Shown here one piece after another: positions 2,216 to 53,008 of a stretch of 64,000 nt of DNA (position 1 is its first letter; each line of letters opens with the position of its first letter). The stretch lies in IMG/VR virus record IMGVR_UViG_3300022542_000792, positions 4,222 through 68,221 of that record. One strand, 5' to 3'. The DNA comes from a virus. The translations under genes were made by a program, and so were the position numbers. The notes under the pieces were generated by a model, which was given only the letters and a program-made list of their open reading frames with translations, did not search any database and had not been told where the DNA came from.

Positions 2216-2998
2216 TTATGGAACCTTAGGAAATGGTTGATTTCTTTCTGTGGTAAATGATCCATCAGATTGATAATGAAAATCTACATACATCAAGATT
2301 GCATCACTACCAAAAGTATCATTTGTAGAATCACGGAATATACGAAACATTATAATCGTATCTGGCTCAACATTTGTTCCATCAATTATGTTATTGATTG
2401 TAGGTGAACCAGTACCAAGTCCAGCTTCTATTAGGTGATGTATGTACTGAGCATCAGCAGCTTGTTCAAAATAAATTGTCGTAGAAGCTGGAAATGCTTC
2501 TTGATTATATCCCTTTGCAATAGTAAATTCTAACCCCCAACGAACAAACCCAGTTGGTGCTGCATTATCATGTGTCCAGTGTATATGTGGATATAAATTT
2601 GTACCAATAACATAATCATGTAATATATGAACACTCGACCATGCTTGTTCAAGTGAAGTTGGATCAAATCCCCAACCTCTAATATTGTCACGTATTGTTA
2701 CAAGATCGGGTGATGTTCCAGGAGCGCCGACGTCAATATTTGAAGCAGAAGCTAAATAATCATTCCACCCCCAATTTGTCCCTGTTGTGCTTTTTGGTTT
2801 TGAAATCCAATTTGTTCCATCAAATATATATTCACCACCAATATAAGTTACAAATGATGGGGATCCTCCAACGATATCCGTTGTTAAAAAAAACTGCTTG
2901 CCAGTGGCAGGTGCACCAGGAAAGGAAGTTCCAGATTCTAATATGTTCTCGAATGTGCTTTCGTCTACTTGAAATCCTGCAATTGGTGGTTGTGCCAT
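2216..2998 (-). CDS. Putative virion/tail-fibre-associated protein
   Basis: 260 aa beta-rich, FDGTNW motif, in fibre cluster, ATAAATA late motif upstream. Confidence 0.5.
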   Translation of the reverse strand: MAQPPIAGFQVDESTFENILESGTSFPGAPATGKQFFLTTDIVGGSPSFVTYIGGEYIFDGTNWISKPKSTTGTNWGWNDYLASASNIDVGAPGTSPDLVTIRDNIRGWGFDPTSLEQAWSSVHILHDYVIGTNLYPHIHWTHDNAAPTGFVRWGLEFTIAKGYNQEAFPASTTIYFEQAADAQYIHHLIEAGLGTGSPTINNIIDGTNVEPDTIIMFRIFRDSTNDTFGSDAILMYVDFHYQSDGSFTTERNQPFPKVP

Positions 2999-3033
2999 TT
3001 ATATATTCTCCATATTTTCTAATTATTTATATA

Positions 3034-4557
3034 TTATCCGAACCCGTAGAATTCTACATCATCATTCAATGCTGGAGTTTGTCCAGCATTGAATGTAACT
3101 GTATTTGGTGCAGTTATAGTGTATGCTTTACCTGATCCTTCAACTTGTTTAATACCATTAACAAATACCATTATTGATGCTTCTCCTGGTGGAGAACCAG
3201 CTGGATCAGTGAAACTGAAAGCTGTAGTATATGCTACAGGAATTTCTGGTGAGCCACCAACACCTGTTCCAGCTTGCAAATCATAATCTGGAAGAGTTGT
3301 TTTGTTATCAACGTATTGTTTCGTTGCAGCTTCAAGTGGTTGTGCAGGGTCAATTGCAAGTGTGACAACACCGCTTCCTGCTACAGTAACATTACCTGTA
3401 AATAATGAATCACCAAGAACATCAAAAGGAACTGAAGGTGCTACATTAATACCAACTCTGTCAGACCCTGCATCAACATAAAGTGTATCAGTATCAACAA
3501 GTAAATTGTTAAGTATTTGAACATTATCATTTGCATCAACTGCAAGAAGATTACTAGTACCAGCAACGTCTTTAATAAGCAAAGTTGCTGAAGCAACATT
3601 GTTCCCTTTAAGCTCCCAAGTAACACCAGTCGCATCTGTGCGCAAAACTGCTCCACCAACTGCTTTAATACCTTTTGCATTTGCAAATTGTAAGTCATTT
3701 GAAAATTGATTATCTAATGTAGTTCCAGTTTGTTTAAATGAGTTTGTAGTTGATGTGTGACCATCGTGTTCAACACGAAGACGTTCACTTCCAGTTGCAG
3801 ACAAAACTCTGAAAATTGAATCTGCAGAAGCAGGATCTATTAATGTACGAAGAGCAGCACCAACATCAGGATAAGATGAATCGCTACCAGAGATAACAAC
3901 ATCAGCCGAAGCTGGTGAGCCAGTACCATTTGGATTTTCTGGATCAGTTAATATTAATGATCCTGATGATGCCAACGAGACACTAGAAGACCATCCAGAT
4001 AATGTATACCGATAAAGTGTTTCATCTATTGTGTTAAACCATTGTTGTCCAATAATAGGATTTGAAGGTGCAGTGCTATTAGCAAAGTTTTCCAATAAAT
4101 GGACTGAACTTTCTAACATTGCGATACCATAATTTAAGTAACCGCGACCAGGAATTAATAATGATGTAGCTTCTTCTGCACCAGGAATTGAATATTTAAT
4201 TTGTCCAAGTGGTAATGCATCTGAAGTTATTTGTCCAGTTTCTACAACTGGTATTGTTGTACGATTTGTTCCTGCACTATATGTGCTTCCAACAAGCGGA
4301 GAACCACTACCCAAAACAGTATACGTTCCATTATTTGGTAACGCAGGGCTTCCAGCAACACCAGTATTCTCTACTGTAAATGTTTGTCCTGGAACGAAAC
4401 GATAAGTTAAATCACCAGCAAGTTCAAATGAAGCTCCTATATTGGTTACTTGAATTCGTCTTGGAATTGATAGATTACCAGGACCATTACTTTCTAATGG
4501 ATAAACATTAAAAGTCGTAACTCCATCTGAAAGTGTGATTGTGTAAATATCGGCCAT
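3034..4557 (-). CDS. Virion structural protein (fibre/baseplate-associated, LLENF family)
   Basis: GRGYLNYG..HLLENFA..GQQWFN domain shared with two neighbours; AATKQYVD fibre motif; VFVNGIKQ C-terminal domain. Confidence 0.65.
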   Translation of the reverse strand: MADIYTITLSDGVTTFNVYPLESNGPGNLSIPRRIQVTNIGASFELAGDLTYRFVPGQTFTVENTGVAGSPALPNNGTYTVLGSGSPLVGSTYSAGTNRTTIPVVETGQITSDALPLGQIKYSIPGAEEATSLLIPGRGYLNYGIAMLESSVHLLENFANSTAPSNPIIGQQWFNTIDETLYRYTLSGWSSSVSLASSGSLILTDPENPNGTGSPASADVVISGSDSSYPDVGAALRTLIDPASADSIFRVLSATGSERLRVEHDGHTSTTNSFKQTGTTLDNQFSNDLQFANAKGIKAVGGAVLRTDATGVTWELKGNNVASATLLIKDVAGTSNLLAVDANDNVQILNNLLVDTDTLYVDAGSDRVGINVAPSVPFDVLGDSLFTGNVTVAGSGVVTLAIDPAQPLEAATKQYVDNKTTLPDYDLQAGTGVGGSPEIPVAYTTAFSFTDPAGSPPGEASIMVFVNGIKQVEGSGKAYTITAPNTVTFNAGQTPALNDDVEFYGFG

Positions 4558-4578
4558 TTTTTATTAATCCTTTATTAA

Positions 4579-6915
4579 TTACGTTATTAAGAACTCAACA
4601 ACTGCCCCTGATGGGACTGCTGTTCTGAATACGATAGCATATGCGATTATACCTGCTGATGCTTGAATATACGATATTGAAGGTGAACCAACAAGGTCAG
4701 CCTCATAATAAGCACCATCGTTTGTTACTTGTGTGATGTCTCCTGGATAGTCAGGGAAAATATTATTATAATCATATATAGGCAAACTAACAGTTGCACC
4801 GACAGCACCCATTGCAGTAAATAAATCAACATCTGTGATGCTTATTGCTGAACCGTTTCCTGAAGTATCTGAGAACACAAAAATACCAACCCAACGAGGA
4901 TCATATATTGCTGTTGCTCCTGTTACTTGAGCATTAATTTGGTCTATGATATCCTGAACTGTTTGTACTTGCGATCCCGTAACATTTACAGTTTGAGGAG
5001 TTTGTGGACTACCAGTTGCTTGTCCATCAACTGCAACAGTAAATGAATATGCTGTCGCATCATCTGGCAAACCAGTTGCTGCAGTTGGTGAAACGTTAAA
5101 CTCTCTTCTAAAATATATTGTTTGACGAGCACGCTGATCGGCATATTGTTTAATACCATTTATAAATACTTGCAATCTATTAAATCCAGAAATATATTCT
5201 TCATCATTATCAATTAAGAATTCTGTTTGTGGTGCAACTGGACGATGAATTTGTTGTAATATTATTTGATTACCAAGTTCTCTTGAAGTTTTACTACCTA
5301 TTTCTGAACTAAGTTGCTCAACTATAACATCAATCGTAGTGTCAAGTTGTTGTGGACTACCACCTGGAACAAGTGCATCACGTAATACTGAATCAACTAC
5401 AGTATGTGTTACATCAGTTGATGGATGAGTATGACTCAAGTCTACTTGTATAGGAACTGGAAGTGGCGAACCACCATCAGATGTTTGAAGATCTAATTGA
5501 TAGATTGATGAATCCCAAGCTGCACTAATTAATACACCATCAGCTCCACCAAGAGCATAAGTGGCAATAGCTTGGTGTACAAAACTACAGGTTGCAATTT
5601 GTGTCGTGGTGTTCGTAGCAGGTGTTGCTGTTGGCGCTATAGGTGTTCCAGTTAATGATGGAGAAGCAAGAGGAGCTGCACCAGCCACATCCGCAATTAA
5701 TATATTTCTATTTTTCCATTGTCCTGCTGGACTACCAACATTGTCATAATATAAAAATTCATCGTGCGATGGAGTAGGTACATAAACATCTAATAAATCA
5801 TCTATTGAAGCTGGAGTTCCTCCTGATACAATAGCTACCACATCATCAACATATTTTTTGGAGGCTGCTGCAGTATCACCAGATGGAAGAGCTGGAAGTC
5901 CAAGAACTTCATTGTTACTCTGTATTTGAATATTACCAGCAAATGTGCTTGTATCATCAGCATCCGAAACACCAACAGTTAATACTGTCACCCCTACAGA
6001 ATTCTTAACTACAAAACTACTAAAAAGGGAGTTGCCAGATTGCATCTCCCAAGTAAATCCGTCTGAACTTAATATTAGTGTTGCACCATCTGCAAGTGGA
6101 GAGCCAGCAACATTCCCTATCAAACCTTTTGTTGCATCAATATTAATATTTGCACCAGTCATTGTTAAATCACCAGTCATTGTATCACCAGTTTGGAGAA
6201 CATAGTTTCCACCTGATGATGCCCACATACTTCCATTCCAAACTTTTAAATCGGTGTTTGCAGTATCATACCACAAGTCACCATCAACGGGGGAAGTAGG
6301 TGCTGTAGTAGATGCAAATGTGCTACTGGTTACAGAAACCCAAGCTTCGCCATTGTACACTTTAAGAGATTTTTCAGGAGTGGCATTTAACGTTATTGGA
6401 TCAGTACTTCCATTAGAACCCGAGTGAAGAACTGTTACCCATGTGTTGGTTAAAGGATGGTCAGTGATAAGTACTCGTCTTTTAAGAGTTAAATTAAGAG
6501 TATCAAACCAATATATTCCATCAGCGACTGCACCTGGATCGGTGCCTTTAGCGTATGTTACTGTTAATGAATCCCAACTAGACGTACTATCATTCCAACG
6601 ATACCAACCAGAAGTAGTTAAAGTGGTTTGCCAATATTCTCTTCGTGAAAACCAAACTTGCCCAGAAATTGGGAGTACAGGAACTGTTGCTCCAGAGAAA
6701 TTTTCAAGTAGATGAAGAACGTTTTCAGCGATTCGTTCGCCGTAATTTGCAGAGCCCCTTCCGTATATTAGTAAACTTGTATCAGCACTAACTGCAGATG
6801 AATCAAGTTGCCCAGAGATTGGGAATGTACGACCATTTGCCGTATATGGGCTAACTATAAACGAAGACTTAGATGGGTCCGTAAAATGTATAATGTACTG
6901 TTCTGGTTGAGCCAT
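4579..6915 (-). CDS. Virion structural/tail fibre protein (LLENF family)
   Basis: YGRGSANYG..HLLENFS; GDLWYDT, GDTMTGDL, AASKKYVD and SPSLTGTPIAPT..TTQIAT fibre motifs. Confidence 0.7.
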   Translation of the reverse strand: MAQPEQYIIHFTDPSKSSFIVSPYTANGRTFPISGQLDSSAVSADTSLLIYGRGSANYGERIAENVLHLLENFSGATVPVLPISGQVWFSRREYWQTTLTTSGWYRWNDSTSSWDSLTVTYAKGTDPGAVADGIYWFDTLNLTLKRRVLITDHPLTNTWVTVLHSGSNGSTDPITLNATPEKSLKVYNGEAWVSVTSSTFASTTAPTSPVDGDLWYDTANTDLKVWNGSMWASSGGNYVLQTGDTMTGDLTMTGANINIDATKGLIGNVAGSPLADGATLILSSDGFTWEMQSGNSLFSSFVVKNSVGVTVLTVGVSDADDTSTFAGNIQIQSNNEVLGLPALPSGDTAAASKKYVDDVVAIVSGGTPASIDDLLDVYVPTPSHDEFLYYDNVGSPAGQWKNRNILIADVAGAAPLASPSLTGTPIAPTATPATNTTTQIATCSFVHQAIATYALGGADGVLISAAWDSSIYQLDLQTSDGGSPLPVPIQVDLSHTHPSTDVTHTVVDSVLRDALVPGGSPQQLDTTIDVIVEQLSSEIGSKTSRELGNQIILQQIHRPVAPQTEFLIDNDEEYISGFNRLQVFINGIKQYADQRARQTIYFRREFNVSPTAATGLPDDATAYSFTVAVDGQATGSPQTPQTVNVTGSQVQTVQDIIDQINAQVTGATAIYDPRWVGIFVFSDTSGNGSAISITDVDLFTAMGAVGATVSLPIYDYNNIFPDYPGDITQVTNDGAYYEADLVGSPSISYIQASAGIIAYAIVFRTAVPSGAVVEFLIT

Positions 6916-6977
6916 AGCTTCCTCGCATAAAATAGACTTTTTATGTATTTATGATAGGTCAATTCTTGTTCAGTAAT

Positions 6978-7006
6978 AAAAAATAGCGTCCGAAGACGCT
7001 ATTTTT
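6978..7006. terminator. Intrinsic terminator (bidirectional form)
   Basis: aaaaatagcgtc-cgaa-gacgctattttt perfect stem with A/T tails. Confidence 0.8.
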
Positions 7007-7027
7007 GTTGGTATGATCAAACTCATA

Positions 7028-8020
7028 TTATGAGTATTGTGCAGGGAATATTATGTTCCAAGTACTAAACGCATATATTTTTATTTGTGTGTTGAGTGAA
7101 TCAACCCAAATATCACCATCTTTTGCAGTACCAGGTGTGCTTGATGAAGTTGTTATCAACGGCTTGGCATCAACGTATGCTTTTGTGGCAGCGTGCAATG
7201 TGTTTGTCGGAGCGCCAGAAAGTGTAAGTGCACCCGTCATTGTACTGCCAGCTTTTGCAACTTTTGCATCCAATTGTGTTTGTATGCTTGAGGTTACACC
7301 ACTAATATCTGTTGATATTAATCCTCTATTTTCCCAAGTAGTCCCATTGAAATATAAAACCTCACCAGTTACAGCAGATGATGTTACATCATCTTCAACA
7401 TCTGACAATTCCCATAATTCATTATTACTACTGATTAATCCATCAACATATTCTTTAGAAGCTGCTCCAGTTGCAGATGGTGACGCTGGTAATCCAAGAA
7501 CTTCACCACCTCCAGCAAATGTAATGTTAGCAGCAGAGTCCATCGTATCACCAGATTTCAATACATAGTGATCAGCTGTTGATGTCCAAACCATTGCATA
7601 ATATACTTTAAGTTGAGTTGCGACCGTATCAAACCACAAATCCCCATCTTGTGGATTTGGTGGTGCGGTAGCTGATGAGAAAACACCACCAGCAGAAACC
7701 CAGTTAGTCCCATCAAACATCATTAATTTATTGGTAGTTGAGTTAAACCATAGTTGTCCTTTTACAGAATATGCTGGATCAAAAAATGCTGGATCTGGTG
7801 CTGTTGTTGCAGGGCTTCCACCCAATTCAGGACTTGCGAAATTTTCTAATATCTTGAGGAAATTTTCATTTACGCCTTCGCCATATTGTAGAGAACCTGC
7901 GCCATATAAACGAAGATTGGTATTTTGTGTTACAGATCCTGGTCCGTCTAGCTTGTTCGGACTGATTCTAAAATTGCCATTCGCTGGATCTGTGTGGTCA
8001 ATGATGTAAATGGCTGTCAT
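7028..8020 (-). CDS. Virion structural/tail fibre protein (LLENF family)
   Basis: LYGAGSLQYG..KILENFA; GDLWFDT, AASKEYVD and AATKAYVD motifs. Confidence 0.7.
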   Translation of the reverse strand: MTAIYIIDHTDPANGNFRISPNKLDGPGSVTQNTNLRLYGAGSLQYGEGVNENFLKILENFASPELGGSPATTAPDPAFFDPAYSVKGQLWFNSTTNKLMMFDGTNWVSAGGVFSSATAPPNPQDGDLWFDTVATQLKVYYAMVWTSTADHYVLKSGDTMDSAANITFAGGGEVLGLPASPSATGAASKEYVDGLISSNNELWELSDVEDDVTSSAVTGEVLYFNGTTWENRGLISTDISGVTSSIQTQLDAKVAKAGSTMTGALTLSGAPTNTLHAATKAYVDAKPLITTSSSTPGTAKDGDIWVDSLNTQIKIYAFSTWNIIFPAQYS

Positions 8021-8146: not shown

Positions 8147-8827
8147 CTAGATATCAAGTTCTTCTACGTACTTTTTCATCATTTCTACATCATTTGGTTG
8201 TTTTCCGAATTTATCCACCCAATAATGAGGACGGATGATAGACTCCATAATAATTCGTTGTTCATCAGAAGTTTGGTGTATTAATAATTCTTTGAACTTG
8301 GGACTGAACAGCAGAATCCAAGGTGATAATCTACGTTCACGAAGTAATGTGATTACTTCATTTGGTTGTAATATGTCAAATATTTCATTTACCTCACATT
8401 CAGCAGCATCCGCTATTTTGAATAATGTATCAATAGTAACCTTGGCTTGACTCAATGGAGATGCACGTCTATCCAAATATTCAAGATATATAGCATACAC
8501 TTGGTCGTTCGTCCATAGTGTAGGAGAAATATCCTTTTCTTTCATTAACGCAACAAATGCATCAACATCAGGAAAGTTTAATTTTTTAACACGTTGTGCA
8601 AAACGATTAAATGATTGGTAATACTTTGACTTTAAAAATGATTGGGAATTCGGAACCATTCGCTTATATGCTTTCATCCACTTCTGGTAGAAAAGCCAAG
8701 CTGCTTGTCCTATAGGCGTACGGAATTCTTCATTACGTTGCATCTGTTTACAGTGATGCTTGAGGTATCTATCCTCTGTAACAAACTTGGCAGAACAGTA
8801 CGAACATTCAAAGTGTTCTTTCTTCAT
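8147..8827 (-). CDS. Hypothetical protein with N-terminal zinc finger
   Basis: FECSYC..F..E..YLKHHC pattern; overlap-coupled to upstream gene. Confidence 0.6.
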   Translation of the reverse strand: MKKEHFECSYCSAKFVTEDRYLKHHCKQMQRNEEFRTPIGQAAWLFYQKWMKAYKRMVPNSQSFLKSKYYQSFNRFAQRVKKLNFPDVDAFVALMKEKDISPTLWTNDQVYAIYLEYLDRRASPLSQAKVTIDTLFKIADAAECEVNEIFDILQPNEVITLLRERRLSPWILLFSPKFKELLIHQTSDEQRIIMESIIRPHYWVDKFGKQPNDVEMMKKYVEELDI

Positions 8828-22854: not shown

Positions 22855-22957
22855 TTGGTAACCCCTATTTCAATATGATTCTCGTATATTTATGTAAGGT
22901 GTATGTTGTGCGTAGAGTTTACATAACATAAATATAATCAACAAAATACAGGAATTT

Positions 22958-25456: not shown

Positions 25457-25466
25457 TAAATAACAT

Positions 25467-25474
25467 TATAAATA
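25467..25474 (+). promoter_or_regulatory. T4-type late promoter TATAAATA
   Basis: Exact motif upstream of 25513 gene with AGGAG SD. Confidence 0.7.
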
Positions 25475-25512
25475 TTAAAACTAAGCAAATAGTTAATTAG
25501 GAGACTTAAAAA

Positions 25513-33791: not shown

Positions 33792-34928
33792 TTAGAGGTT
33801 AGAAGGAGTGACAAGAATTCCGTCAAAATCACCATATGATGGCAACTGTAATCCCATATACATACGTTCTATGGCGTAAACAGGGACAGTCTTGTCAGGA
33901 CGAGAAGTTTGACGGTCAATTAATTCTTGCAATTCAATTGGGAATACAATTGCTTGAATGTAATAACCACGTTTGCGAGCCTCTGTAATATAGAATCTAC
34001 GGCGCTTTGCAGATGTGTTTGTGTTATCAACATACAAGTCATTGCCAGTTTTAATCATCTCCATATAACGAGCGTTTGCTTTTGAGTTGAATGTATTATC
34101 ACCACAAGCACGTTCAAACGCTTTGCTGTATGCTTCTCTGAGAGAATATTCTCCATCTTCTTCTGCGTCAATGTACCATTCCAATCGCAAATCATCCAAA
34201 GAGAAAACTGGAAGGTTTGGCAAAGAGTTCCGGAATGTAGATTTCCCTGTTCCTGCTGCTCCAATCGGTACATACAAGATTGGTTGGTCATCAGCAGCTC
34301 GTTCAGGAGACGACTCACATTCATCCATTAACGAAAAGAATTCTACAATCCATTGGTTGACTTTTGCTTTCTTTTCAGAACCATCATCAGAAATTCGTCC
34401 CCAAGTATCAGCAAGAAGCAAATCAACGAATGCAAGTTTCAACCCCGTATCGTGAAGAGTCTGAGCGATTGCTTTACGCTTCTCAATTCTTTTAACTCCC
34501 CAAGGCAAATGATGTTCAATCATCCAACCAACGTGGTAGATATCCTCTACAACAAGTCCAAATTCCATCAACCGTACCCATTCACGAACAGCAAAGTCTT
34601 CCCACATACGAGCGGAGAGAATTTCGTGTCCGCCAAAAGAAAGGTAGTTACCTCTTTCTGGTTTGAATTTGATACCATTCTTTTTACAAGCGGCAGGTTT
34701 GCCAACATCATGAAAAGCACAAGCTAACGCTCCAAGCAAAGTTGGAGTATCCCACATATTGTGATTACGGCCAAGATATTGAGCCACAACCATATCCGTA
34801 TGAATACCAACATTCGCTTCTCTGTGCCAAGGTGAACCCTCAACGGTTTCGACCATAGACTGATATAAATCAGTTAGGTGAAACTCATTGAAGTACCAAG
34901 TTGTAAATTCTGTTCGTAAATCTAACAT
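33792..34928 (-). CDS. HD-domain phosphohydrolase fused to P-loop (polynucleotide kinase-like) domain
   Basis: WHRE..HT, FHDVGKP, GHE..SA, ADTWGR; then IGAAGTGKST, SLDDLR and VDNTN. Confidence 0.85.
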   Translation of the reverse strand: MLDLRTEFTTWYFNEFHLTDLYQSMVETVEGSPWHREANVGIHTDMVVAQYLGRNHNMWDTPTLLGALACAFHDVGKPAACKKNGIKFKPERGNYLSFGGHEILSARMWEDFAVREWVRLMEFGLVVEDIYHVGWMIEHHLPWGVKRIEKRKAIAQTLHDTGLKLAFVDLLLADTWGRISDDGSEKKAKVNQWIVEFFSLMDECESSPERAADDQPILYVPIGAAGTGKSTFRNSLPNLPVFSLDDLRLEWYIDAEEDGEYSLREAYSKAFERACGDNTFNSKANARYMEMIKTGNDLYVDNTNTSAKRRRFYITEARKRGYYIQAIVFPIELQELIDRQTSRPDKTVPVYAIERMYMGLQLPSYGDFDGILVTPSNL

Positions 34929-41320: not shown

Positions 41321-43432
41321 TTAAATCTCAGCGCCTGATGCAACAACGCGTATTGGTACGTAGATAAATTCAGCTGCTTTGACTGGCTTAATAGCCACAT
41401 CAATATACATTTCGTTTCTGTCTATACGGTCAGGTGTGTTATTTGATTCATCACAAACTGTTGCGAAATCATATAAACCACGTTTAACCACTATGTCTCC
41501 CAAGAATCCATCAACGACAGCTTTAAGATTGTCACGGGTTAATTGGTCATTTGGTTCGAATACGAATGCAAGTGTATTTTTACGCAATTGACGCTTAATG
41601 TACATTACAAGACGTGAAACATTTACACGGTCAAGAGCACTTGCGTCAGATGCTGATGTCTTCTGTCCCCAGATAAGAATACCACGACCAGGGAAGAATG
41701 CAATCGGATTAACGTTTGTGAAGTATTTGTATAAATCATCACGTTGACCTTGATTAACATGCAATGCATTAAATGTTGTTGCAGTTCCAAGTTCACCTGA
41801 AACATAACCAACATCAGTAAGACCAGTAACAAGACCACGACGTGTTCCTGCTGGTGCAAACCATAATTGACTTACTTCATCACTAAATGCATATGTGCGA
41901 AGTGCTGTTCCACTTGCTGCAATGAATACATTCTTTCCATCAATATTTGATGCAAGTCCATGAGGATAGTAATAAGCAACATTTGTAGATGATTGACGAG
42001 CTGGTGTTCCAGCCCATGCAACTACTTCAGATGCTGTCATATCCATTGGCGTATCTGCGATAACAAATGCTTCACCACTAATATCAGCAGAAAGTGCTAA
42101 CATTTCATCAACTACTTCATGATATCCAGGGCAAAGAATTAAATTAAATTCAAAGTTTTCAGAACGTACTTCTGTATTAGCATTCATTGTTCCTTGAAGT
42201 GCTGTAACTATTGCTGCACGACGTGCAGTATCATTAGCACCAAGGCTTGTAAGATTTCTAAACTCAGCAGTAAACTTAAAGTTGTCTGCTGCATTAGTAA
42301 GAGATGTTGTAGCTTCTGCAGGAGACCATTCTGTAGGGGTTGGACTTCCACTACCACCAGCAACCCAAGCTGCTACATCACCTTCAAAACCAAGATATGT
42401 ACCAGTAGCTGCTTGTGAATAACCATTTCCATAAACTGGAAGAGCAACATCAATTGTAACACCGTTAACTGGAAGTGAAAATGAAACAAAACCATTTAAG
42501 TTTGCGAATAATGCTGTAGCTCCTGATCCGTCTGTAATACTGATTGTTGAAGCAGCACCTTCTAATGTACTTGTAATTACAATATTATCAGCTTGTGGAG
42601 AGCCACCTGGAGTTAAAGATGCAACTGCACCTGTAAGGTCAGTGTTTATTGCTGCCAATAAAGCTGTCCAAGTTGTTGCATCTGATCCAGAGAAGGAAAT
42701 ATTATTTACCGTACCATCAACTGTAACCGTAGCTGTATAAGTAGTACCACCAACAAGGCCAGGATCAGCACCAACATCAGTAATGCTGTTACCCATATCA
42801 ACGACTTGGATACCACTTGTGCTTGCAGCAGGAATACCATTATCATCAAAGAAGTCTGTTTCAAGACCTGAGAAAGTTGCTAAGTCCCAAATATCTGTTG
42901 TTGCATCATTAGCAAGAGAAACTATCTCTGCTGCTGTTACTGTTGTTCTGAAACCAGGATCGGTTGTAACAAAACCATTTGTATTATTGTATTCGTCAAG
43001 TAATGCTTGTGCAAGAATTGCAATAGTTGTTCCTGCAGTAACAATTTTGGAATCCCATCGGGTACGTAATGTTACAGTGTCATCATCAAGATTGACATTT
43101 GCACGGACTACATAAGCTCTATTACCTAAACCAAGGAATTGGTTTAATCCAAATAGGCCGTATTCATTTCTTGCATCACCGTGTTGAGCATTTCCACTAG
43201 AATCTTCAAGGAAGCTTGGAACACCATATAATTCAAGACTCTGTTTCAGAGACGTTACTGTGCGAACAACATCGTGTTCATATGTGCCAGCAGCAGGTGT
43301 AGTTCCATCAATTTGAACTTTTTCATCAGCTGTTGCAACAAAAATTAGAGGGACAGTGGATGCGGCCGCTGGGATGAAGAAACTTTCATCTGTTACCGTT
43401 ACACTTACACCTGGACTTACTAATGTAGCCAT
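41321..43432 (-). CDS. Contractile tail sheath protein (gp18-like)
   Basis: LVSPGVSV, WFAPAGTRRG, WGQKT, DRVNVSRL, FEPND and PVKAAEFIY motifs. Confidence 0.95.
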   Translation of the reverse strand: MATLVSPGVSVTVTDESFFIPAAASTVPLIFVATADEKVQIDGTTPAAGTYEHDVVRTVTSLKQSLELYGVPSFLEDSSGNAQHGDARNEYGLFGLNQFLGLGNRAYVVRANVNLDDDTVTLRTRWDSKIVTAGTTIAILAQALLDEYNNTNGFVTTDPGFRTTVTAAEIVSLANDATTDIWDLATFSGLETDFFDDNGIPAASTSGIQVVDMGNSITDVGADPGLVGGTTYTATVTVDGTVNNISFSGSDATTWTALLAAINTDLTGAVASLTPGGSPQADNIVITSTLEGAASTISITDGSGATALFANLNGFVSFSLPVNGVTIDVALPVYGNGYSQAATGTYLGFEGDVAAWVAGGSGSPTPTEWSPAEATTSLTNAADNFKFTAEFRNLTSLGANDTARRAAIVTALQGTMNANTEVRSENFEFNLILCPGYHEVVDEMLALSADISGEAFVIADTPMDMTASEVVAWAGTPARQSSTNVAYYYPHGLASNIDGKNVFIAASGTALRTYAFSDEVSQLWFAPAGTRRGLVTGLTDVGYVSGELGTATTFNALHVNQGQRDDLYKYFTNVNPIAFFPGRGILIWGQKTSASDASALDRVNVSRLVMYIKRQLRKNTLAFVFEPNDQLTRDNLKAVVDGFLGDIVVKRGLYDFATVCDESNNTPDRIDRNEMYIDVAIKPVKAAEFIYVPIRVVASGAEI

Positions 43433-46554: not shown

Positions 46555-49428
46555 TTATCCTACAATAAAGGTTGTTGCAATTCCAAAATCTTCAACTGTA
46601 TTAACAATAAAGTTATCAAGTTGTTCATAACATTCTGCCATATCAGTTTCTGCTCTTGCAATAAGCTCACCTGCGTTAAGAGATACACCACCACCAGCAC
46701 CTGGAAGTGAAGCATATTTACCACGAATTTCAGCAAGCATAAGACGAGCTTGTGCAGATGCATATTTTTCAATCCAAGATTTAGTCCAACGATCAGTTAA
46801 TAATTCTTGTTCTGTTCTTTCAATTGACGCATCAATAAGAATTCTTTCATCATAACCAAATGTCTGATAGAAATTTAGTTGACGTGTTTGTTCATTCCAT
46901 TGGAACACTAAACGAGTAGCAAACATATCTTCCAATGTTTCAATATATGATGCAACAAGATGATAACTCAATAAATCAAATGTTCCCATTGTATATAGAT
47001 GTTGTATAACTGTCTGTCCAAAAATACCACCTTCATATGCTGTAGTTAAGAATGCAGAATTTGTTCTGTATGCAGCCATAACTGTAACAATTTTATTAAA
47101 CCCAACGGTTTTATTTGTTAATCGTAGTGATTGTTGACCTGCAGGGACATCAACAAAGAAAAATGCGCGACGATAAGCAGCAGCACTTCGTTTGCGTAAT
47201 GATTCCAATCCAGCTGTGATTGCTGTATCCAACTGATATTTTGTAAGTTCAACTTGAACAACTGGATAACCAAGCTGTGCACGAATACTATCCATTAGTT
47301 CTCGTCTTTCATCTGGAGTACCATCATCACCAACACCAATTTGTTGATATTGAGGAGTAGGATCTACCCCATCTGTTCCAGCTACATAATCTACAAGTCC
47401 AGTAAATCCAGCAAGAGAATCAAACAAATCAACATCAGTTAAAATGATTGAAGAAGTGCTACCTGTCGTAGAGCTTGTGAATAAAAGATTACCATCAGAT
47501 GTTAATTCAACAATAGCAGCGTGTACTGAAGCAACATATGCTACTCCATTCCATTCATTAAGAATTTCATTAATTGTATCATACCATAGAGAACCAGTTG
47601 CTGGTGTTAATGGTAGAGTTGTAAATAACGCTGATACCCAAGAAACACCATTCCATTGATTCAAAGCAGTATTTGTTGTATCAAACCAAAATATACCAGT
47701 CGCTGGTGTATGTGGTGCTGCAGTTGCATCTACAGGATTAAATGCTACCCAAGTACCTGGTGAACCAGCTCGTTCATACCAAATATTATTTGTTGTGTCA
47801 AACCAAACATCTCCAGTGCTAACAATAGTTGGATCTGTTAAGCTATTAATAAATGTAACAGCTACCCACATTGAACCATCCCAACGATTTAGAGTAGTTG
47901 CTATTGTATTATACCAAACATCTGCAGTCGTCATTGTTGGTGGCGATGCTGGGTCTGTTGCTTGTTGTAAGAATGTAGTAACTAAGTCCCAAGATGATGT
48001 AGTGACATCCCAAACATAAAGGTTATCTCCAACAGAATCCCACCACAACCCACAAGAGTCACGATTTGTTGGATCGTCGGCTAATGATAATACTGTTAGG
48101 TCTGTCCAAGAAGTATTTGTTACATCACGTTGTTTTAATTCTTCTGTAGTAGGATTATACCAATAATTATTTGGTGCAGGTAATGTTGGTTCTGTTGAAC
48201 TTATAGTAGCTGTTAAAGTATCCCATGACGCTCCATTCCACTGCTTAAGAACATTATTTGTTTCATCAAACCAGTATGTACCAACCGTTAAACTATTCGG
48301 ATCCACATTCCAATAAATTGCATCAACATCATTCCAACTATTGGTTTGATCATTCCACTGATGGAGGAGTAAACTTACACTATCGTACCAATATGTTCCG
48401 AATGTTGGATATGTTGGAAGTGTTGGATCAGTCGCCTGGTTCCATAAAGTTTTTTCACACCATGTGTTGCCTTCCCAAATATACGCATTTGTTTCATTGA
48501 ACCAATAATCATTTCCATCAAGAGCTGTTGGATCTTGACTATACGTTGTGAATGTTTGAGTTACCCAACTTAAAGGCGAGCCACTCCATTTTGAAAGAAT
48601 AAGTGTTGTCGGGTTGTACCAATAATCTCCAGCACTTGGAGAATTAGGAGCTGAGGATTCTACGATGACGGTTACTTCAACGTGTTGTGTTCCATCCCAT
48701 TGGAATAATTCTTCAGTAGTTGCATTCCAATAATATGCACCAGTATTAGGTGATGTTGGTCCTTGAGGAGGATTGTTGACTTTCCCAATACTCTTTGCTA
48801 TTTCTGTTACGAGTTGATCATACGATGGAGTATTTGTTCCATCAACTGTTACTGAATATTCTGTGCCATCAATATCAATAGTAAATGTATAGTCTACACC
48901 AGTTGATAAACCTGTATTATCAGTCCCTGCGACTCCTAATGTTGCTACTTGGTAACCAGCAACTGGACTTACTTCATTACCACCGACATAATCCAACGCA
49001 TAAGCGTGAACGCCTTCTATATGATAACGATAAAGTTTATCAACAGCAAAACCAGAAACATACACAGCCATTTCAGCTGTTAATCCTGTTACATCAAAAA
49101 ATGTTGTTGTTTTGTCATCATACAATGCACTAATAACAAGAGATGTACCAATTTTATCACCAGCGTGTAGATTTGAGTCACCAGTTGGGTCAGCTGTATA
49201 TACTGTTCCGTTGACTGGACTTTTGTCAGGAGAGGTGTGCGTGGTATCAAGTGTAACAATAATACCATTATATGCTTGGTCATCTGCAGAACAACCTGAC
49301 GCTGGATTTGGAATATCCCAAGATATACGACCGGATGTTGGTCCAGTTCTCGTAAATCTAATTGTTATTTCCTGACCTTCTGTGCGAATTTGAAAGGGAC
49401 TGTCAGCGGATGAATCAAATGTTCCCAT
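46555..49428 (-). CDS. Neck protein (gp13-like) with long Trp-rich repeat insertion
   Basis: C-terminal LGYPVVQVEL..W...YA.A....L..IRGKY..LPG.GG.SLN; middle has many G.(Y/L)W(Y/F)(D/N)...L..W.G..W repeats. Confidence 0.75.
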   Translation of the reverse strand: MGTFDSSADSPFQIRTEGQEITIRFTRTGPTSGRISWDIPNPASGCSADDQAYNGIIVTLDTTHTSPDKSPVNGTVYTADPTGDSNLHAGDKIGTSLVISALYDDKTTTFFDVTGLTAEMAVYVSGFAVDKLYRYHIEGVHAYALDYVGGNEVSPVAGYQVATLGVAGTDNTGLSTGVDYTFTIDIDGTEYSVTVDGTNTPSYDQLVTEIAKSIGKVNNPPQGPTSPNTGAYYWNATTEELFQWDGTQHVEVTVIVESSAPNSPSAGDYWYNPTTLILSKWSGSPLSWVTQTFTTYSQDPTALDGNDYWFNETNAYIWEGNTWCEKTLWNQATDPTLPTYPTFGTYWYDSVSLLLHQWNDQTNSWNDVDAIYWNVDPNSLTVGTYWFDETNNVLKQWNGASWDTLTATISSTEPTLPAPNNYWYNPTTEELKQRDVTNTSWTDLTVLSLADDPTNRDSCGLWWDSVGDNLYVWDVTTSSWDLVTTFLQQATDPASPPTMTTADVWYNTIATTLNRWDGSMWVAVTFINSLTDPTIVSTGDVWFDTTNNIWYERAGSPGTWVAFNPVDATAAPHTPATGIFWFDTTNTALNQWNGVSWVSALFTTLPLTPATGSLWYDTINEILNEWNGVAYVASVHAAIVELTSDGNLLFTSSTTGSTSSIILTDVDLFDSLAGFTGLVDYVAGTDGVDPTPQYQQIGVGDDGTPDERRELMDSIRAQLGYPVVQVELTKYQLDTAITAGLESLRKRSAAAYRRAFFFVDVPAGQQSLRLTNKTVGFNKIVTVMAAYRTNSAFLTTAYEGGIFGQTVIQHLYTMGTFDLLSYHLVASYIETLEDMFATRLVFQWNEQTRQLNFYQTFGYDERILIDASIERTEQELLTDRWTKSWIEKYASAQARLMLAEIRGKYASLPGAGGGVSLNAGELIARAETDMAECYEQLDNFIVNTVEDFGIATTFIVG

Positions 49429-51108: not shown

Positions 51109-51151
51109 CCGCTGCTCTACCACGTTGTTATTATATATTTATAATTAGAAC

Positions 51152-51478: not shown

Positions 51479-51512
51479 AATTATGACCCTTTAAGTGATT
51501 CAGAGGAACCCC

Positions 51513-51541
51513 ATTATACCATACATTTCACTTTCCGACAA
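51513..51541 (-). promoter_or_regulatory. sigma70-type promoter
   Basis: TTGTCG-17 nt-TATAAT with extended TG. Confidence 0.6.
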
Positions 51542-51547
51542 CGCATA

Positions 51548-51574
51548 AAAAAGCCCCGATAAATCGGGGCTTTT
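51548..51574 (-). terminator. Terminator downstream of major capsid gene
   Basis: aaaaagccccgat-aa-atcggggctttt. Confidence 0.85.
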
Positions 51575-51601
51575 GATTTTACACCTTTCTAAACTTTGTT
51601 T

Positions 51602-53008
51602 TTATGCAAAGTCAAGAGCAGATACAGCTATCTTACCGTAGTAATCAGCACTGTTTCCAAGTGATGTAGTTGCGCTAGTGAATGAAGTCTTGCCGTAGCG
51701 AGTCATCAAACTAACAACAGGTTGGAATGTAACTGGGTTAACAACCACACCTGAACTCATCAATGGAATATATGGGCAGTAGAAGTAACCAGTATCAGTT
51801 TCTCCGTTTCCACCTTTATAACCAATAAGGATTGTATCATTGTTACTTGCTTGAGTAGTACCAAGATCAAGACCAGCACCTGCTTGATTCCACAAGTATG
51901 AATAAACCTTGATTGAACCATTAAGAGTACCAACTAACATTGTATTGTTAGGACCTTTGAAAGAACCTTCAACAGCTGGAGCAAATACTGACTTGCTTGC
52001 AGACTGAAGAACAGAAACAATCATTGGTGAAACAACGATGAAGTTACCAACACCACGACGAGTCTTACGACCAATCTCGTTAGCAACACGGTTAATAATT
52101 ACTGAGATGTTAGCAAGACGATCACCTACGTATGCAGGAGCGTATGTACCAGCAACACCACCACCGTAACCACCACCTGAAGCACCATCAAATGTATCAG
52201 TTGTACCAGCAAGAGCGATAAGATCGCTAATGATTTCAGCGTCAATTTCTTGAACGATTTCAGCAGAAAGCGCTTGAGTCATTTCTGATTCAATATCAAG
52301 TCCGTGTTGTGAATTCATATCTTGCATAGCTTCGATAGTCCAACCAGCTTGAAGTTTACGTGAACCAGCTTCAACAGCTTGGCTTACAACTTCAAGTCCC
52401 ATTTTACGACCACCAGAACCTTCAAGGTAACTACCAGAACCACCATAAGAACGGTTAGCAGTAGTTGCAGTGATGTCAAGGCTTGAAGGCCATGCTTCAC
52501 CAGTAGTTTCTGAACCATCGATCGCAGTTGTTCCGATACCAATACCACCAGCACCAGCTACTTGAGCATCAGCTCCAGCAGGTAATGGAGAACCAGAACC
52601 AGCACCAGCACCACCAGAATAGAAAGCACGAAGAGCAGGGCTGTTGCCAAACGCTTCATTACCAGCTGTGATGCTTTGTGCACCGAATGCATCATTAGTT
52701 GTATCAGTTACTGATTCTTTGTAAGTGTAACGCAAAGAATAAACAAGTCCAACAGGACCAGTCATTGGTTGTACACCAACTAATTCACTTGCAATTGTAC
52801 CAGGAATGATACGACGAATCATTGGGATTAAGATTTTACGGAATCCAGCAATGTCGTGTGCAACAGTTGCGCCAGAAGCGGCTGTTTCCATCATCATTTG
52901 GTTTTTTTGGTTTTCAAGAAGAGGTGCGACAATCTTACGTTTGTCAGCGGCTAATCCTTCAAGTAACGCTTCTTTGGTCTCTGACCAATTTTCGAACATT
53001 TCGTCCAT
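51602..53008 (-). CDS. Major capsid protein (T4 gp23-like)
   Basis: LENQ, GVQPMTGPVG, SRKLQAGWT.E..QD..HGLD, EIDAEI and YCPYIPL..TFQP..MTRYG motifs. Confidence 0.95.
   Translation of the reverse strand: MDEMFENWSETKEALLEGLAADKRKIVAPLLENQKNQMMMETAASGATVAHDIAGFRKILIPMIRRIIPGTIASELVGVQPMTGPVGLVYSLRYTYKESVTDTTNDAFGAQSITAGNEAFGNSPALRAFYSGGAGAGSGSPLPAGADAQVAGAGGIGIGTTAIDGSETTGEAWPSSLDITATTANRSYGGSGSYLEGSGGRKMGLEVVSQAVEAGSRKLQAGWTIEAMQDMNSQHGLDIESEMTQALSAEIVQEIDAEIISDLIALAGTTDTFDGASGGGYGGGVAGTYAPAYVGDRLANISVIINRVANEIGRKTRRGVGNFIVVSPMIVSVLQSASKSVFAPAVEGSFKGPNNTMLVGTLNGSIKVYSYLWNQAGAGLDLGTTQASNNDTILIGYKGGNGETDTGYFYCPYIPLMSSGVVVNPVTFQPVVSLMTRYGKTSFTSATTSLGNSADYYGKIAVSALDFA

What the first reader, a model, noticed from the sequence alone, without database searches (positions are those of the whole stretch)
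2216..53008. Virion-wide [GSATV]-G-S-P motif inserted into loops of outer structural proteins: candidate modification sequon
Seen: by manual count GSP occurs 27 times in 11 virion proteins (~7,100 aa): 2216(2), 3034(5), 4579(6), 7028(1), 20626(1), 22958(2), 25513(3), 28792(2), sheath(2), neck 46555(2) and major capsid(1). It is always preceded by G/S/A/T/V. A rough compositional expectation is ~3. Among non-structural proteins I found one (EGSP in the HD enzyme), plus PGSP in the tape measure. Codons vary (gga tcc cca, ggt tca cct, gga agc cct, ggt agt cca, ggt tct ccg, ggc tca cca), so this is not a DNA repeat. Paralog comparisons show insertions at turns: YYDNVGSPAGQWKNR vs YFNGTTWENR; KGLIGNVAGSPLADGA vs KGIKAVGGA; VDGQATGSPQTPQTV vs VDGTVNNI; KWSGSPLSW vs QWNGASW; ENFASPELGGSPATTAP vs ENFANSTAP. 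Established: some phages (e.g. mycobacteriophages) glycosylate virion proteins with their own glycosyltransferases. Inference: GSP is an acceptor sequon (Ser O-glycosylation or another adduct) or a docking site for a decoration protein, repeatedly acquired so that head, neck, sheath and fibres are all coated. No modifying enzyme is identifiable in this window.
Basis: partly seen in the sequence, partly recalled or inferred. Interest (0 to 1): 0.85.

Follow-up and report, generated by a model that had tools for sequence, protein, structure and literature searches.

The report
Gly-Ser-Pro tag on jumbo-phage virions
The outer particle proteins of this uncultured giant phage, and of scattered relatives but not their sister lineages, carry Gly-Ser-Pro six to twelve times more often than chance, so the string probably marks sites where something, most likely a chemical modification, acts on the virion surface, though no enzyme or chemistry is known.

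Summary
There are 29 GSP in 66 ORFs against 3.9 expected, and GSP ranks first of 8000 tripeptides. No shuffle of 5000 reached 29. Twenty-seven sites lie in the 11 named virion proteins (2.2 expected).

The signal is at protein level: 19 TCN and 10 AGY Ser codons, and the degenerate DNA pattern occurs only in the coding frame.

New here: the window is about 20% of an XacN1-like jumbo phage. GSP is the top or near-top tripeptide in 6 of 19 related genomes or contigs (87 vs 15.6 in a complete 363-kb relative). It is at expectation in the other 13, including orthologous giant, sheath, neck and capsid proteins. The six are not one clade on the capsid tree.

Sites lie in indel-rich loops, are shared between GSP-rich genomes, and are almost never shared with GSP-poor ones. 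The extended motif is [G/T/S/V/A]-G-S-P-[L/A/S/I/T].

This pattern calls for a lineage-specific factor acting in trans. A Ser-directed modification sequon is the best reading (about 0.45), but no writer enzyme was found. PrkA was rejected. A radical-SAM cassette, a CMP-Kdo pathway, a sulfotransferase and an MptE/Maf-like gene occur in only one genome.

This scan has noted analogous but different Ser motifs in other phages.

The parts
2216..2998 (-). 260-aa fibre-like virion protein with 2 GSP (residues 45, 197; DNA 2858-2866, 2402-2410)
   Evidence: No PHROG or Pfam family. Expected 0.12.
3034..4557 (-). 507-aa fibre-like protein with 5 GSP (residues 69, 85, 213, 435, 454)
   Evidence: Expected 0.30.
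4579..6915 (-). 778-aa tail-fibre protein with 6 GSP (residues 271, 394, 482, 519, 635, 743). Homologue of the G002 750-aa fibre, which has 11 GSP.
   Evidence: PHROG tail-fibre families; expected 0.35.
7028..8020 (-). 330-aa fibre-associated protein with 1 GSP (residue 68)
   Evidence: site shared with G001.
20626..22854 (-). 742-aa protein with a tail-fibre-like C-terminus and 1 GSP (residue 705), conserved in G001
22958..25456 (+). 832-aa virion protein with 2 GSP (residues 592, 632). Its family was found only in GSP-rich genomes.
25513..28179 (+). 888-aa virion protein with 3 GSP (residues 46, 181, 335; two conserved in G001). Its family occurs in 4 GSP-rich genomes and in 0 of 13 GSP-poor ones.
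28792..30711 (+). 639-aa virion structural protein (PHROG 1645) with 2 GSP (residues 169, 548). Shares 55% identity with a G002 protein and has no hit in the 7 GSP-poor genomes tested at that stage.
41321..43432 (-). Tail sheath, 703 aa, with 2 GSP (residues 277, 362) in the lineage-variable insertion part, outside the conserved C-terminal domain.
   Evidence: sheath orthologues: 11 vs 0.72 expected in GSP-rich genomes, 2 vs 1.65 in GSP-poor.
46555..49428 (-). Neck / head-tail adaptor-like protein, 957 aa, with 2 GSP (residues 283, 555) at the turn of W..GSP..W hairpin-like repeats.
51602..53008 (-). Major capsid protein (T4 gp23-like), 468 aa, with 1 GSP (residue 139) in a Gly/Ala-rich hypervariable loop.
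   Evidence: GSP in the MCP of 6 of 6 GSP-rich genomes and 1 of 13 GSP-poor.
33792..34928 (-). Non-structural HD/polynucleotide-kinase-like protein with one EGSP (residue 31). NSP in G001, so this is probably a chance instance.
56996..59215 (-).

Best explanation
[G/T/S/V/A]-G-S-P-[L/A/S/I/T/V] is a short linear motif under positive selection on the flexible loops and hairpin turns of outward-facing virion proteins: fibres, giant baseplate/fibre proteins, sheath insertion domains, neck and a capsid loop. It occurs in a patchily distributed subset of XacN1-like jumbo phages.

Its most likely role is as a recognition site (sequon) for a trans-acting cytoplasmic enzyme that modifies the invariant Ser before or during assembly. 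The modification would be O-glycosylation or another O-linked adduct, and the exposed parts of the particle would end up coated.

Shown:
- the enrichment;
- its protein-level nature;
- its restriction to outer virion proteins;
- its lineage specificity;
- its location in indel-rich segments;
- its recurrent gain.

Inferred:
- that a trans-acting factor reads the motif;
- that Ser is the acceptor;
- that the product is a surface coat.

The writer is unidentified. It may be host-encoded or an unrecognisable phage protein.
For: (1) Enrichment in the window. 29 vs 3.94 expected, rank 1 of 8000 tripeptides, 0 of 5000 shuffles reach it. 27 vs 2.21 in the 11 outer virion proteins, 1 vs 0.68 in 8 inner or morphogenesis proteins, and 1 vs 1.05 in the 47 others.

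(2) Protein level, not DNA. Both Ser codon families are used, and the pattern occurs only in the coding frame.

(3) Lineage specificity among 19 related genomes or contigs.
- GSP is rank 1 in G000 (29 vs 4.05), G001 (18 vs 3.6), G002 (87 vs 15.6, p 7.5e-36), G003 (23 vs 7.0) and G013 (17 vs 3.0). It is rank 4 in G014 (7 vs 1.5).
- It is at expectation in 13 others: G004 12/14.5, G005 13/12.3, G006 9/12.1, G009 12/11.8, G010 21/19.2, G011 8/5.9, G012 8/9.5, G015 4/2.4, G016 8/7.1, G017 7/6.9, G018 3/3.5, RsoM2USA 14/17.5, XacN1 22/24.2.

(4) Same proteins, different lineages.
- Giant protein orthologues: 30 vs 2.3 expected in GSP-rich genomes, 8 vs 6.5 in GSP-poor.
- Sheath: 11 vs 0.7 against 2 vs 1.65.
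- 1075-aa protein: 12 vs 0.85 against 1 vs 1.8.
- Portal and tube: 0 in GSP-rich genomes.

(5) Site behaviour.
- Of 250 site-by-GSP-poor-genome comparisons, 2 are GSP, 15 are GTP and about 100 involve gaps. Background rates are 11-22% identical tripeptides and 4-8% gaps.
- Between GSP-rich genomes, 7 of 14 sites (G000-G001) and 5 of 9 (G000-G002) are conserved, against 35% and 21.5% background.

(6) Recurrent gain.
- The G002 sheath has an insertion carrying three GSP.
- The window (GSGSPT) and G002 (GTGSPP) both carry GSP in the same sheath loop, where 12 other orthologues do not.
- Extra GSP-bearing insertions occur in the MCPs of L012, L028, L037, L045 and L064.

(7) The six GSP-rich genomes need 4 state changes on the MCP tree, at least 2 of them forced by well-supported branches. 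An AU test rejects holding them as one clade (p 0.0086).

(8) Flanks are constrained over 155 sites. Position -1 is G/T/S/V/A in 113 of 155 (background 42%). Position +1 is L in 32 vs 10.9 expected, and never K or R.
Against: - No writer was found. The window and all of G000 give no hit for radical SAM, sulfotransferase, GT2, GT4, 2OG-oxygenase, Pkinase, MptE/Maf or Kdo-transferase families.
- The complete GSP-rich genome G002 lacks GT2, GT4, P4H and Pkinase.
- No Pfam glycosyltransferase appears among the family lists returned for 127 G002-specific proteins. Three families were not shown.
- The only families shared by 3 or more GSP-rich genomes and absent from all 13 GSP-poor ones are fibre-like structural proteins and one 109-aa ORF.
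- Five of the six GSP-rich records are 8-34% fragments, so enzyme association effectively rests on one genome.
- GTP is the commonest alternative at aligned sites in GSP-poor genomes (15 of 250), and G-T-P occupies the same MCP loop in a large GSP-poor clade. That also fits a turn-forming structural role.
- Exposure is not demonstrated. The AlphaFold models have mean pLDDT 59 and 51.
- Genes flanking the MCP show no enrichment even in MCP-GSP lineages: 13 vs 9.9, compared with 23 vs 21.4 in the rest.
Confidence: 0.45

Rival explanations
1. Purely structural motif. small-G-S-P-aliphatic is a favoured turn or strand-start element of a particular fibre/baseplate architecture. It spread because GSP-rich phages exchange the same tail-fibre modules. 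Nothing reads or modifies it.
For: - G-T-P, and more rarely G-x-P, occupy many homologous positions in GSP-poor genomes.
- Many sites precede beta-strand-like segments (GSP-x3-6-[YF]T[VI]xG) or sit at W..GSP..W hairpin turns.
- GSP-rich genomes exclusively share three fibre-like protein families.
- No enzyme was found.
Against: - The motif is enriched in unrelated folds (HK97/gp23-like capsid, sheath, neck, fibres), not in one domain family. Contexts are non-homologous.
- Orthologues of the same proteins in sister lineages have none.
- Permuted and neighbouring tripeptides are at expectation.
- The capsid and sheath are not part of an exchangeable fibre module, yet they carry the motif in 6 of 6 and 4 of 4 GSP-rich genomes that hold them.
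Confidence: 0.25
2. Non-covalent docking or adhesion site. GSP loops bind a decoration or cement protein of the phage, or weakly bind a host or environmental surface polymer in the manner of Hoc/Ig-like adherence, so many copies increase avidity.
For: - The motif is restricted to outward-facing proteins, present in many copies per protein, and correlated with a particular set of fibre genes that may mean a shared host type.
- Three large proteins of unknown function are exclusive to GSP-rich genomes and could be the binder.
Against: - A tripeptide core with small or aliphatic flanks is a poor specific binding epitope.
- No candidate decoration protein was identified.
- The exclusive proteins themselves carry GSP.
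Confidence: 0.12
3. Protective motif. Pro-containing loops are selected because they resist a protease, or escape a sensor, specific to the hosts or habitat of these lineages.
For: Lineage-specific and surface-restricted distribution. Proline after the scissile region generally hinders proteolysis (established general knowledge).
Against: - It does not explain the strict G and S: ASP, TSP, SSP, GAP and GTP are not enriched.
- About half of the sites are insertions that add loop length instead of hardening existing loops.
Confidence: 0.07
4. DNA-level or annotation artefact: a repeat, a methylation or restriction-site signal, or wrong frames.
For: None found.
Against: - Six Ser codons from two unrelated codon boxes are used. 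Codon use in the motif mirrors background.
- The degenerate DNA pattern occurs 29, 0, 0 times in the three sense frames.
- Contexts are unique.
Confidence: 0.01

Closest known systems
Virion glycosylation of mycobacteriophages (Che8, Corndog, Myrna) by phage-encoded glycosyltransferases.
   Same: Phage structural proteins exposed on the particle would carry O-linked adducts on Ser/Thr, added in the cytoplasm.
   Different: - There the acceptors are, as I recall, Ser/Thr-rich C-terminal extensions of capsid and tail tube, and the phages encode recognisable glycosyltransferases.
- Here the acceptor would be a discrete 5-residue motif scattered in loops of at least 11 proteins.
- No glycosyltransferase is recognisable, and no chemistry exists.
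Maf-type flagellin O-glycosylation with CMP-activated ulosonic acids (Campylobacter, Helicobacter, Aeromonas; recalled)
   Same: It is cytoplasmic O-glycosylation of surface-exposed Ser/Thr on a self-assembling filament. The complete GSP-rich genome G002 encodes KDO8P synthase, CMP-Kdo synthetase and a 257-aa MptE/Maf-family protein (36 bits against a 34.6 cut-off).
   Different: - Flagellin sites have no strict sequon (recalled).
- The G002 protein holds only the core domain, barely passes the cut-off and has no PDB relative by sequence.
- None of the three genes was found in any other genome searched for them: G004, G005, XacN1 and RsoM2USA for all three; also G000, G001, G003, G006, G009, G010 and eight further contigs for PF01973.
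- The three genes are not clustered.
[S/T]-[G/A]-S and related Ser/Thr motifs enriched in outer virion proteins of marine T4-like phages, as noted earlier in this scan (e1-5659371, e1-5836438 and others; unchecked AI notes)
   Same: The same kind of signal: an ordered Ser-containing tripeptide several-fold over-represented only in outward-facing virion proteins, present or absent by lineage.
   Different: - The motif differs. Pro at +1 is obligatory, and [S/T] at -2 is present in only 50 of 155 sites.
- The phage group differs (XacN1-like jumbo myoviruses).
- Unlike those notes, no co-varying glycosyltransferase pair was found here.
Radical SAM/SPASM peptide maturases (PapB ranthipeptide, SCIFF, anSME families)
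   Same: In G002, four tandem genes of this superfamily lie inside the fibre operon, directly upstream of the 750-aa fibre with 11 GSP. anSME enzymes oxidise Ser or Cys in a short motif that contains Pro (recalled).
   Different: - All scores are far below the family cut-offs (125.9 bits against 340 for PapB).
- The GSP fibres have few or no Cys, so thioethers are unlikely.
- The sulfatase motif is S/C-x-P-x-R, not S-P.
- The cassette is absent from the syntenic site in the window.
- Its only other copy (L211) sits in an unrelated phage whose flanks are not GSP-rich: 2 vs 0.9.

Membership tests
Phage-encoded virion O-glycosylation system (mycobacteriophage type) | Phage-encoded glycosyltransferase | tested here: not met
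   PF00535 and PF00534: no hit over the cut-off in G000, G001, G002, G003. No glycosyltransferase family appears among the lists returned for 127 G002-specific proteins. 34 of the window's 66 ORFs were scanned with PHROGs or Pfam without an enzyme candidate.
Phage-encoded virion O-glycosylation system (mycobacteriophage type) | Ser/Thr acceptors on surface-exposed parts of virion proteins | tested here: inconclusive
   Ser is invariant. The sites are in outer virion proteins, in indel-rich segments and in predicted coil. The models are too poor (pLDDT 59 and 51) to show exposure.
Phage-encoded virion O-glycosylation system (mycobacteriophage type) | Glycan demonstrated on virion proteins | not testable with these tools
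   The phage is uncultured. No proteomic or glycan data are available.
Maf-type CMP-ulosonic acid protein glycosylation | CMP-sugar biosynthesis genes plus a Maf (PF01973) transferase in GSP-rich genomes | tested here: inconclusive
   G002 has KdsA and KdsB (over the NCBIfam cut-offs) and a PF01973 hit of 36 bits against 34.6. None is in G000, G001 or G003, which are fragments, nor in G011-G018. So n = 1.
Proline-directed Ser phosphorylation | A protein kinase co-occurring with the motif | tested here: not met
   Pkinase PF00069: 0 of 11 genomes. The PrkA/DUF444/SpoVR operon is in G002 and G003, but PrkA is also in RsoM2USA, which is not GSP-enriched at 14 vs 17.5.
Collagen-type G-X-Pro prolyl hydroxylation | Gly after the Pro (X-Pro-Gly) and a prolyl 4-hydroxylase | tested here: not met
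   Gly at +1 in 5 of 155 sites. PF13640 is absent from all GSP-rich genomes and present only in the GSP-poor G005.
Radical SAM/SPASM maturase acting on neighbouring fibre proteins | Cassette co-occurs with GSP-rich proteins wherever it is found | tested here: not met
   It is present in G002 only. It is absent from G000, G001, G003 and from the syntenic fibre locus of the window. The L211 cassette has GSP-poor flanks.
Formylglycine (sulfatase) motif | [C/S]-x-[P/A]-x-R spacing | tested here: not met
   Ser and Pro are adjacent in every site. The GCP enrichment in G002 and G005 comes from an unrelated H-x-x-G-x-GCPxC zinc-finger repeat in non-virion proteins.

The most novel reading that the evidence does not exclude
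A hitherto undescribed virion-coating system. A cytoplasmic writer, either host-encoded or a phage protein of no known family, recognises a compact 5-residue sequon, small-G-S-P-aliphatic, and attaches an O-linked group to the Ser. Several lineages of 350-kb jumbo phages have independently written this sequon into loops of capsid, neck, sheath, baseplate and fibre proteins: up to 15 copies in one 1022-aa protein and 87 per genome. The whole exposed surface would then be modified. This would be the first defined protein-modification sequon for phage particles of Gram-negative hosts.
Probability: 0.35. Interest if true: 0.85.

Novelty: new variant of a known kind. Interest (0 to 1): 0.62.

Why it matters
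If GSP is a modification sequon, it gives a sequence-readable marker for which phages decorate their particles and exactly where. It also offers a compact tag that could be moved onto other proteins.

It would extend virion modification from actinobacteriophages to jumbo phages of Gram-negative hosts. The presence/absence contrast among close relatives (6 of 19) provides a ready comparative design for finding the writer once more complete genomes or a cultured GSP-rich phage exist.

If instead it is structural or adhesive, it is still a rare example of a tripeptide convergently selected across unrelated folds of one particle.

The statistics are strong, but the mechanism is open.

Tried and rejected
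**PrkA serine-kinase operon.** PrkA, DUF444 and SpoVR are shared by G002 and G003 and absent from G004 and G005. I rejected the lead because RsoM2USA has PrkA without enrichment, and the operon dropped out of the GSP-rich-only set when seven GSP-poor genomes were used.

**Radical SAM/SPASM cassette in the G002 fibre operon**. It was not found in G000, G001, G003, XacN1, RAS14 or Xoo-sp13. A single-protein scan of viral contigs found only itself. The profile scan found one true relative, L211, whose flanks are not GSP-rich. I keep it only as a lead.

**Other G002-only leads.** KdsA and KdsB, the sulfotransferase next to a fibre gene and the MptE/Maf-like protein all occur in G002 alone.

**Enzyme families.** GT2, GT4, P4H, Pkinase and Kdo transferase are absent from the GSP-rich genomes.

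**GCP co-enrichment.** It comes from an unrelated zinc-finger repeat.

**Window ORF 581-2203 as a SurA-like chaperone.** The hit is weak and below the cut-off, and the protein is a repetitive coiled-coil-like protein.

**Fibre relatives.** The search for relatives of the 778-aa fibre in viral contigs found none.

**Test on MCP-flanking genes.** It was uninformative: 13 vs 9.9 against 23 vs 21.4. Over all 80 MCP loci the total was 65 vs 50.

**AlphaFold.** The sheath model (pLDDT 59) and the MCP model (pLDDT 51) were too poor for exposure mapping, so I made no fold search.

**PDB by sequence.** Only the sheath C-terminal domain and the gp23 fold are matched. The 639-aa protein has no PDB, Pfam or Atlas lead.

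**Literature.**
- I saw the listings only. None of the 25 listed of 52 papers holding 'GSP motif', 'Gly-Ser-Pro' or 'G-S-P motif' concerns phage virions.
- I read passages of PMC12014285. It reports phosphorylation and acetylation on marine phage structural proteins and gives no motif in the passages seen.
- I did not ask for supplements. They are closed and might hold site lists.

**Rows dropped.**
- ORFs under 60 aa, and ORFs overlapping a longer ORF by more than 60 nt, in all genome scans.
- Three G002-specific ORFs split across 20-kb chunk borders.
- Identical MCP duplicates.

Full report
**1. What the window is**

The window is 64 kb of a 68,221-bp viral contig (G000) that CheckV rates about 20% complete. 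PHROG and Pfam scans identify:
- tail sheath, sheath stabiliser, tube, neck/adaptor, portal, prohead protease, baseplate hub and large terminase;
- a replication block with clamp loader, helicases, UvsX and SSB.

The major capsid protein (MCP) is T4 gp23-like (E 9.5e-42 to 5vf3).

Its relatives are environmental jumbo phages with contigs up to 363 kb (MCP identity 63-87%). Among isolates they are Xanthomonas phage XacN1, Stenotrophomonas phages CM1 and RAS14, Xoo-sp13 and, more distantly, Ralstonia phage RsoM2USA.

**2.

| Measure | Result |
|---|---|
| Expectation from per-protein composition | 3.94 (Poisson p 4.8e-16) |
| Rank among 8000 tripeptides | 1; runner-up TDP, 17 vs 4.4 |
| Within-protein shuffles reaching 29 | 0 of 5000 (max 13) |
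| 11 named virion proteins (7,104 aa) | 27 vs 2.21 |
| 8 further virion or morphogenesis proteins (tube, sheath stabiliser, 517-aa structural protein, portal, hub, scaffold-like, protease, 739-aa protein) | 1 vs 0.68 |
| 47 remaining ORFs | 1 vs 1.05 |

Within the 11 proteins, 27 of 50 Ser-Pro dipeptides follow Gly, and 27 of 45 G-x-P have x = Ser.

Ser is encoded by 19 TCN and 10 AGY codons. The degenerate DNA pattern occurs 29, 0, 0 times in the three sense frames and 0, 4, 0 antisense. The signal is therefore in the protein, not the DNA. The sequence contexts are unrelated to each other.

**3. It is a lineage trait, not a general property of these proteins**

I fetched whole contigs of relatives and repeated the unbiased 8000-tripeptide scan on each.

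GSP-rich:

| Genome | Size | Observed vs expected | Rank |
|---|---|---|---|
| G000 | 68 kb | 29 vs 4.05 | 1 |
| G001 | 60 kb | 18 vs 3.6 (p 4.5e-8) | 1 |
| G002 | 363.5 kb, 100% complete | 87 vs 15.6 (p 7.5e-36) | 1 |
| G003 | 117 kb | 23 vs 7.0 | 1 |
| G013 | 49 kb | 17 vs 3.0 | 1 |
| G014 | 30 kb | 7 vs 1.5 | 4 |

At expectation (ranks 1136 to 5815): G004 (292 kb, 90% complete), G005, G006, G009, G010 (350 kb, terminal repeats), G011, G012, G015-G018, RsoM2USA and XacN1.

Orthologue by orthologue the contrast is clean:

| Protein | GSP-rich genomes, obs vs exp | GSP-poor genomes, obs vs exp |
|---|---|---|
| Giant ~3,000-3,800-aa protein | 30 vs 2.3 | 8 vs 6.5 |
| 1075-aa protein | 12 vs 0.85 | 1 vs 1.8 |
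| Sheath | 11 vs 0.7 | 2 vs 1.65 |
| Neck | 6 vs 1.1 | 1 vs 2.8 |
| MCP | 6 vs 1.3 | 1 vs 2.7 |
| Portal | 0 | 2 vs 1.70 |
| Tube | 0 | 3 vs 1.63 |

In G002, GSP sits overwhelmingly in the structural blocks, for example 15 in a 1022-aa protein, 14 in the 3702-aa protein, 11 in a 750-aa fibre and 7 in a 259-aa protein.

GC content does not separate the groups: 31.7-40.5% for the GSP-rich against 35.9-51.1%.

**4. Distribution on the tree**
- On an MCP tree of the 19 genomes, the six GSP-rich ones need four changes of state. At least two are forced by branches with SH-aLRT of 95 or more.
- An AU test rejects holding them together (p 0.0086).
- Two caveats apply. This was a quick tree, and I named the group after seeing an earlier tree. 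The MCP may also not share the history of the tail genes.
- G004, G011 and G015 (GSP-poor) sit among G002, G014 and G003 (GSP-rich). The window and G001 lie in another part of the tree.

**5. Where the sites lie**
- In 75 MCP relatives, the window's GSP falls in a Gly/Ala-rich, length-variable loop.
- Many relatives have GSP there, and a large clade has G-T-P. Several carry further GSP in independent insertions (L012, L028, L037, L045, L064).
- In the sheath alignment, G002 has an insertion with three GSP where the other 14 sequences have none.
- The window (GSGSPT) and G002 (GTGSPP) both carry GSP in a loop where 12 orthologues read G-S/G-V/T-V.
- Across 250 comparisons of a GSP site with the aligned position in a GSP-poor genome, 2 are GSP, 15 are GTP and about 100 involve gaps. 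The same alignments have 11-22% identical tripeptides and 4-8% gaps overall.
- Between GSP-rich genomes the sites are kept at or above background: 7 of 14 for G000-G001, 5 of 9 for G000-G002 and 7 of 40 for G002-G003.
- Pooling 155 sites, position -1 is G/T/S/V/A in 113 (background 42%). Position +1 is Leu in 32 (10.9 expected), then A, S, I, T, and never K or R.
- AlphaFold models of the sheath (15-sequence alignment, pLDDT 59) and MCP (70 sequences, pLDDT 51) put all three sites in coil. They are too weak to prove exposure.
- By sequence, only the sheath's C-terminal domain matches T4 gp18. The GSP-bearing middle part is lineage-specific.

**6. What this implies**

A motif with these properties needs a lineage-specific cause acting on the finished proteins:
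- it is gained repeatedly in unrelated folds of one particle;
- it occurs only in outward-facing components;
- it is kept among some lineages and absent from orthologues in their sisters.

A generic turn preference would appear in the sister lineages too.

The invariant hydroxyl residue, the constrained uncharged flanks and the many copies per protein fit an acceptor sequon best. Because virions assemble in the cytoplasm, the writer should be a soluble phage or host enzyme; that step is inference.

**7. The search for the writer failed to converge**
- **PrkA.** The PrkA-DUF444-SpoVR operon looked promising: G002 and G003 have it, G004 and G005 do not. But RsoM2USA has PrkA without enrichment.
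- **G002-only genes.** G002 alone carries the following:
  - four tandem radical SAM/SPASM maturase-like genes inserted in its fibre operon;
  - KDO8P synthase and CMP-Kdo synthetase;
  - a sulfotransferase beside a fibre gene;
  - a borderline MptE/Maf-family protein.
- **The rSAM cassette.** It is missing from the syntenic locus of the window, which lies between the conserved genes at 3-545 and 8147-8827. Its only other copy, L211, sits in an unrelated backbone with GSP-poor flanks.
- **Enzyme families.** GT2, GT4, prolyl hydroxylase, Hanks kinase and Kdo transferase are absent from the GSP-rich genomes.
- **Exclusive families.** Families found in at least 3 GSP-rich and 0 of 13 GSP-poor genomes are only fibre-like structural proteins (the window's 832- and 888-aa proteins) and one small ORF.
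- **Meaning.** The shared fibre genes hint that GSP-rich phages share a host type. That would fit a host-encoded writer, or a host-specific selective pressure.
- **Limit.** Five of the six GSP-rich records are fragments, so absence of an enzyme in them means little.

**8. Relation to what is known**
- Experimentally shown virion glycosylation exists for mycobacteriophages (recalled, not read here).
- This scan's notebook holds several unchecked AI notes of other Ser/Thr tripeptides, mostly [S/T]-[G/A]-S, enriched in outer virion proteins of marine T4-like phages together with glycosyltransferase pairs. One of them prompted my PF01973 test.
- The present case is the same kind of signal with a different, Pro-containing motif, in a different phage group and without a recognisable transferase.
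- Full-text searches for the motif names found nothing about phage particles (listing only).

**9. Verdict**

A trans-acting reader or writer is the best explanation, and modification of Ser is the most likely form of it (0.45). A structural reading (0.25) and a binding reading (0.12) remain open, and no enzyme or chemistry supports any specific adduct.

Noticed in passing
G002:213041-218577 (L106:13041-18577, minus strand): Four tandem radical SAM/SPASM peptide-maturase-like genes (402, 400, 407 and 523 aa) plus a 104-aa ORF are inserted in a jumbo-phage tail-fibre operon. The same four-gene cassette, in the same order, occurs in an unrelated 35-kb viral contig (L211:6250-11149).
   Followed up: partly
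G002, within 100-160 kb (loci L101-L103): The phage encodes CRISPR-Cas components of the type I-F variant: Cas5fv helical domain, Csy4/Cas6f, and Cas3 HD and C-terminal domains. They are among genes absent from four related genomes. I did not determine exact coordinates.
   Followed up: no
G002:57811-58641 (-), 176762-177490 (+), 342691-343464 (+): G002 carries KDO8P synthase, CMP-Kdo synthetase and a sulfotransferase. A PagL-like lipid A deacylase and OMP beta-barrel proteins occur elsewhere in G002. Together these form a set of envelope-directed auxiliary genes absent from the related genomes checked.
   Followed up: partly
G002:243918-248744 (L108:3918-8744, minus strand); also G003 and RsoM2USA 21854-26670: A complete prkA - DUF444(yeaH) - spoVR(ycgB) operon is carried by jumbo phages, at 69-81% identity between G002 and G003.
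   Followed up: partly
window 581-8020 compared with G002:208154-221551: This is a hypervariable fibre-cassette locus bounded by two conserved genes (window 3-545 and 8147-8827). Its content ranges from about 0.4 kb in RsoM2USA to about 13 kb in G002 and G009.
   Followed up: partly
window 581-2203 (-): A 540-aa protein built of repeats (…TRQELTKPEV..QSVNQMIA..IANIP…) lies directly next to the GSP-rich fibre genes and has no GSP. Its SurA_N_3 hit is weak and below the cut-off.
   Followed up: partly
XacN1 whole genome (W01); G017 (63-kb contig): Other extreme tripeptide signals occur in relatives. XacN1 has TPT 325 vs 43.6 and PTP 175 vs 28.4 (Thr-Pro repeats). G017 has FTG 149 vs 11.6 and TGS 167 vs 18.7.
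   Followed up: no
G002 and G005, various non-virion ORFs: GCP enrichment (15 vs 3.2 in G002, 12 vs 1.8 in G005) comes from a repeated H-x-x-G-x-GCP-x-C zinc-finger-like motif, up to three copies per protein. It is unrelated to GSP.
   Followed up: yes
window, all ORFs: The next most enriched tripeptides are TDP (17 vs 4.4) and SGS (22 vs 7.6). SGS partly overlaps the S-G-S-P form of the motif.
   Followed up: no
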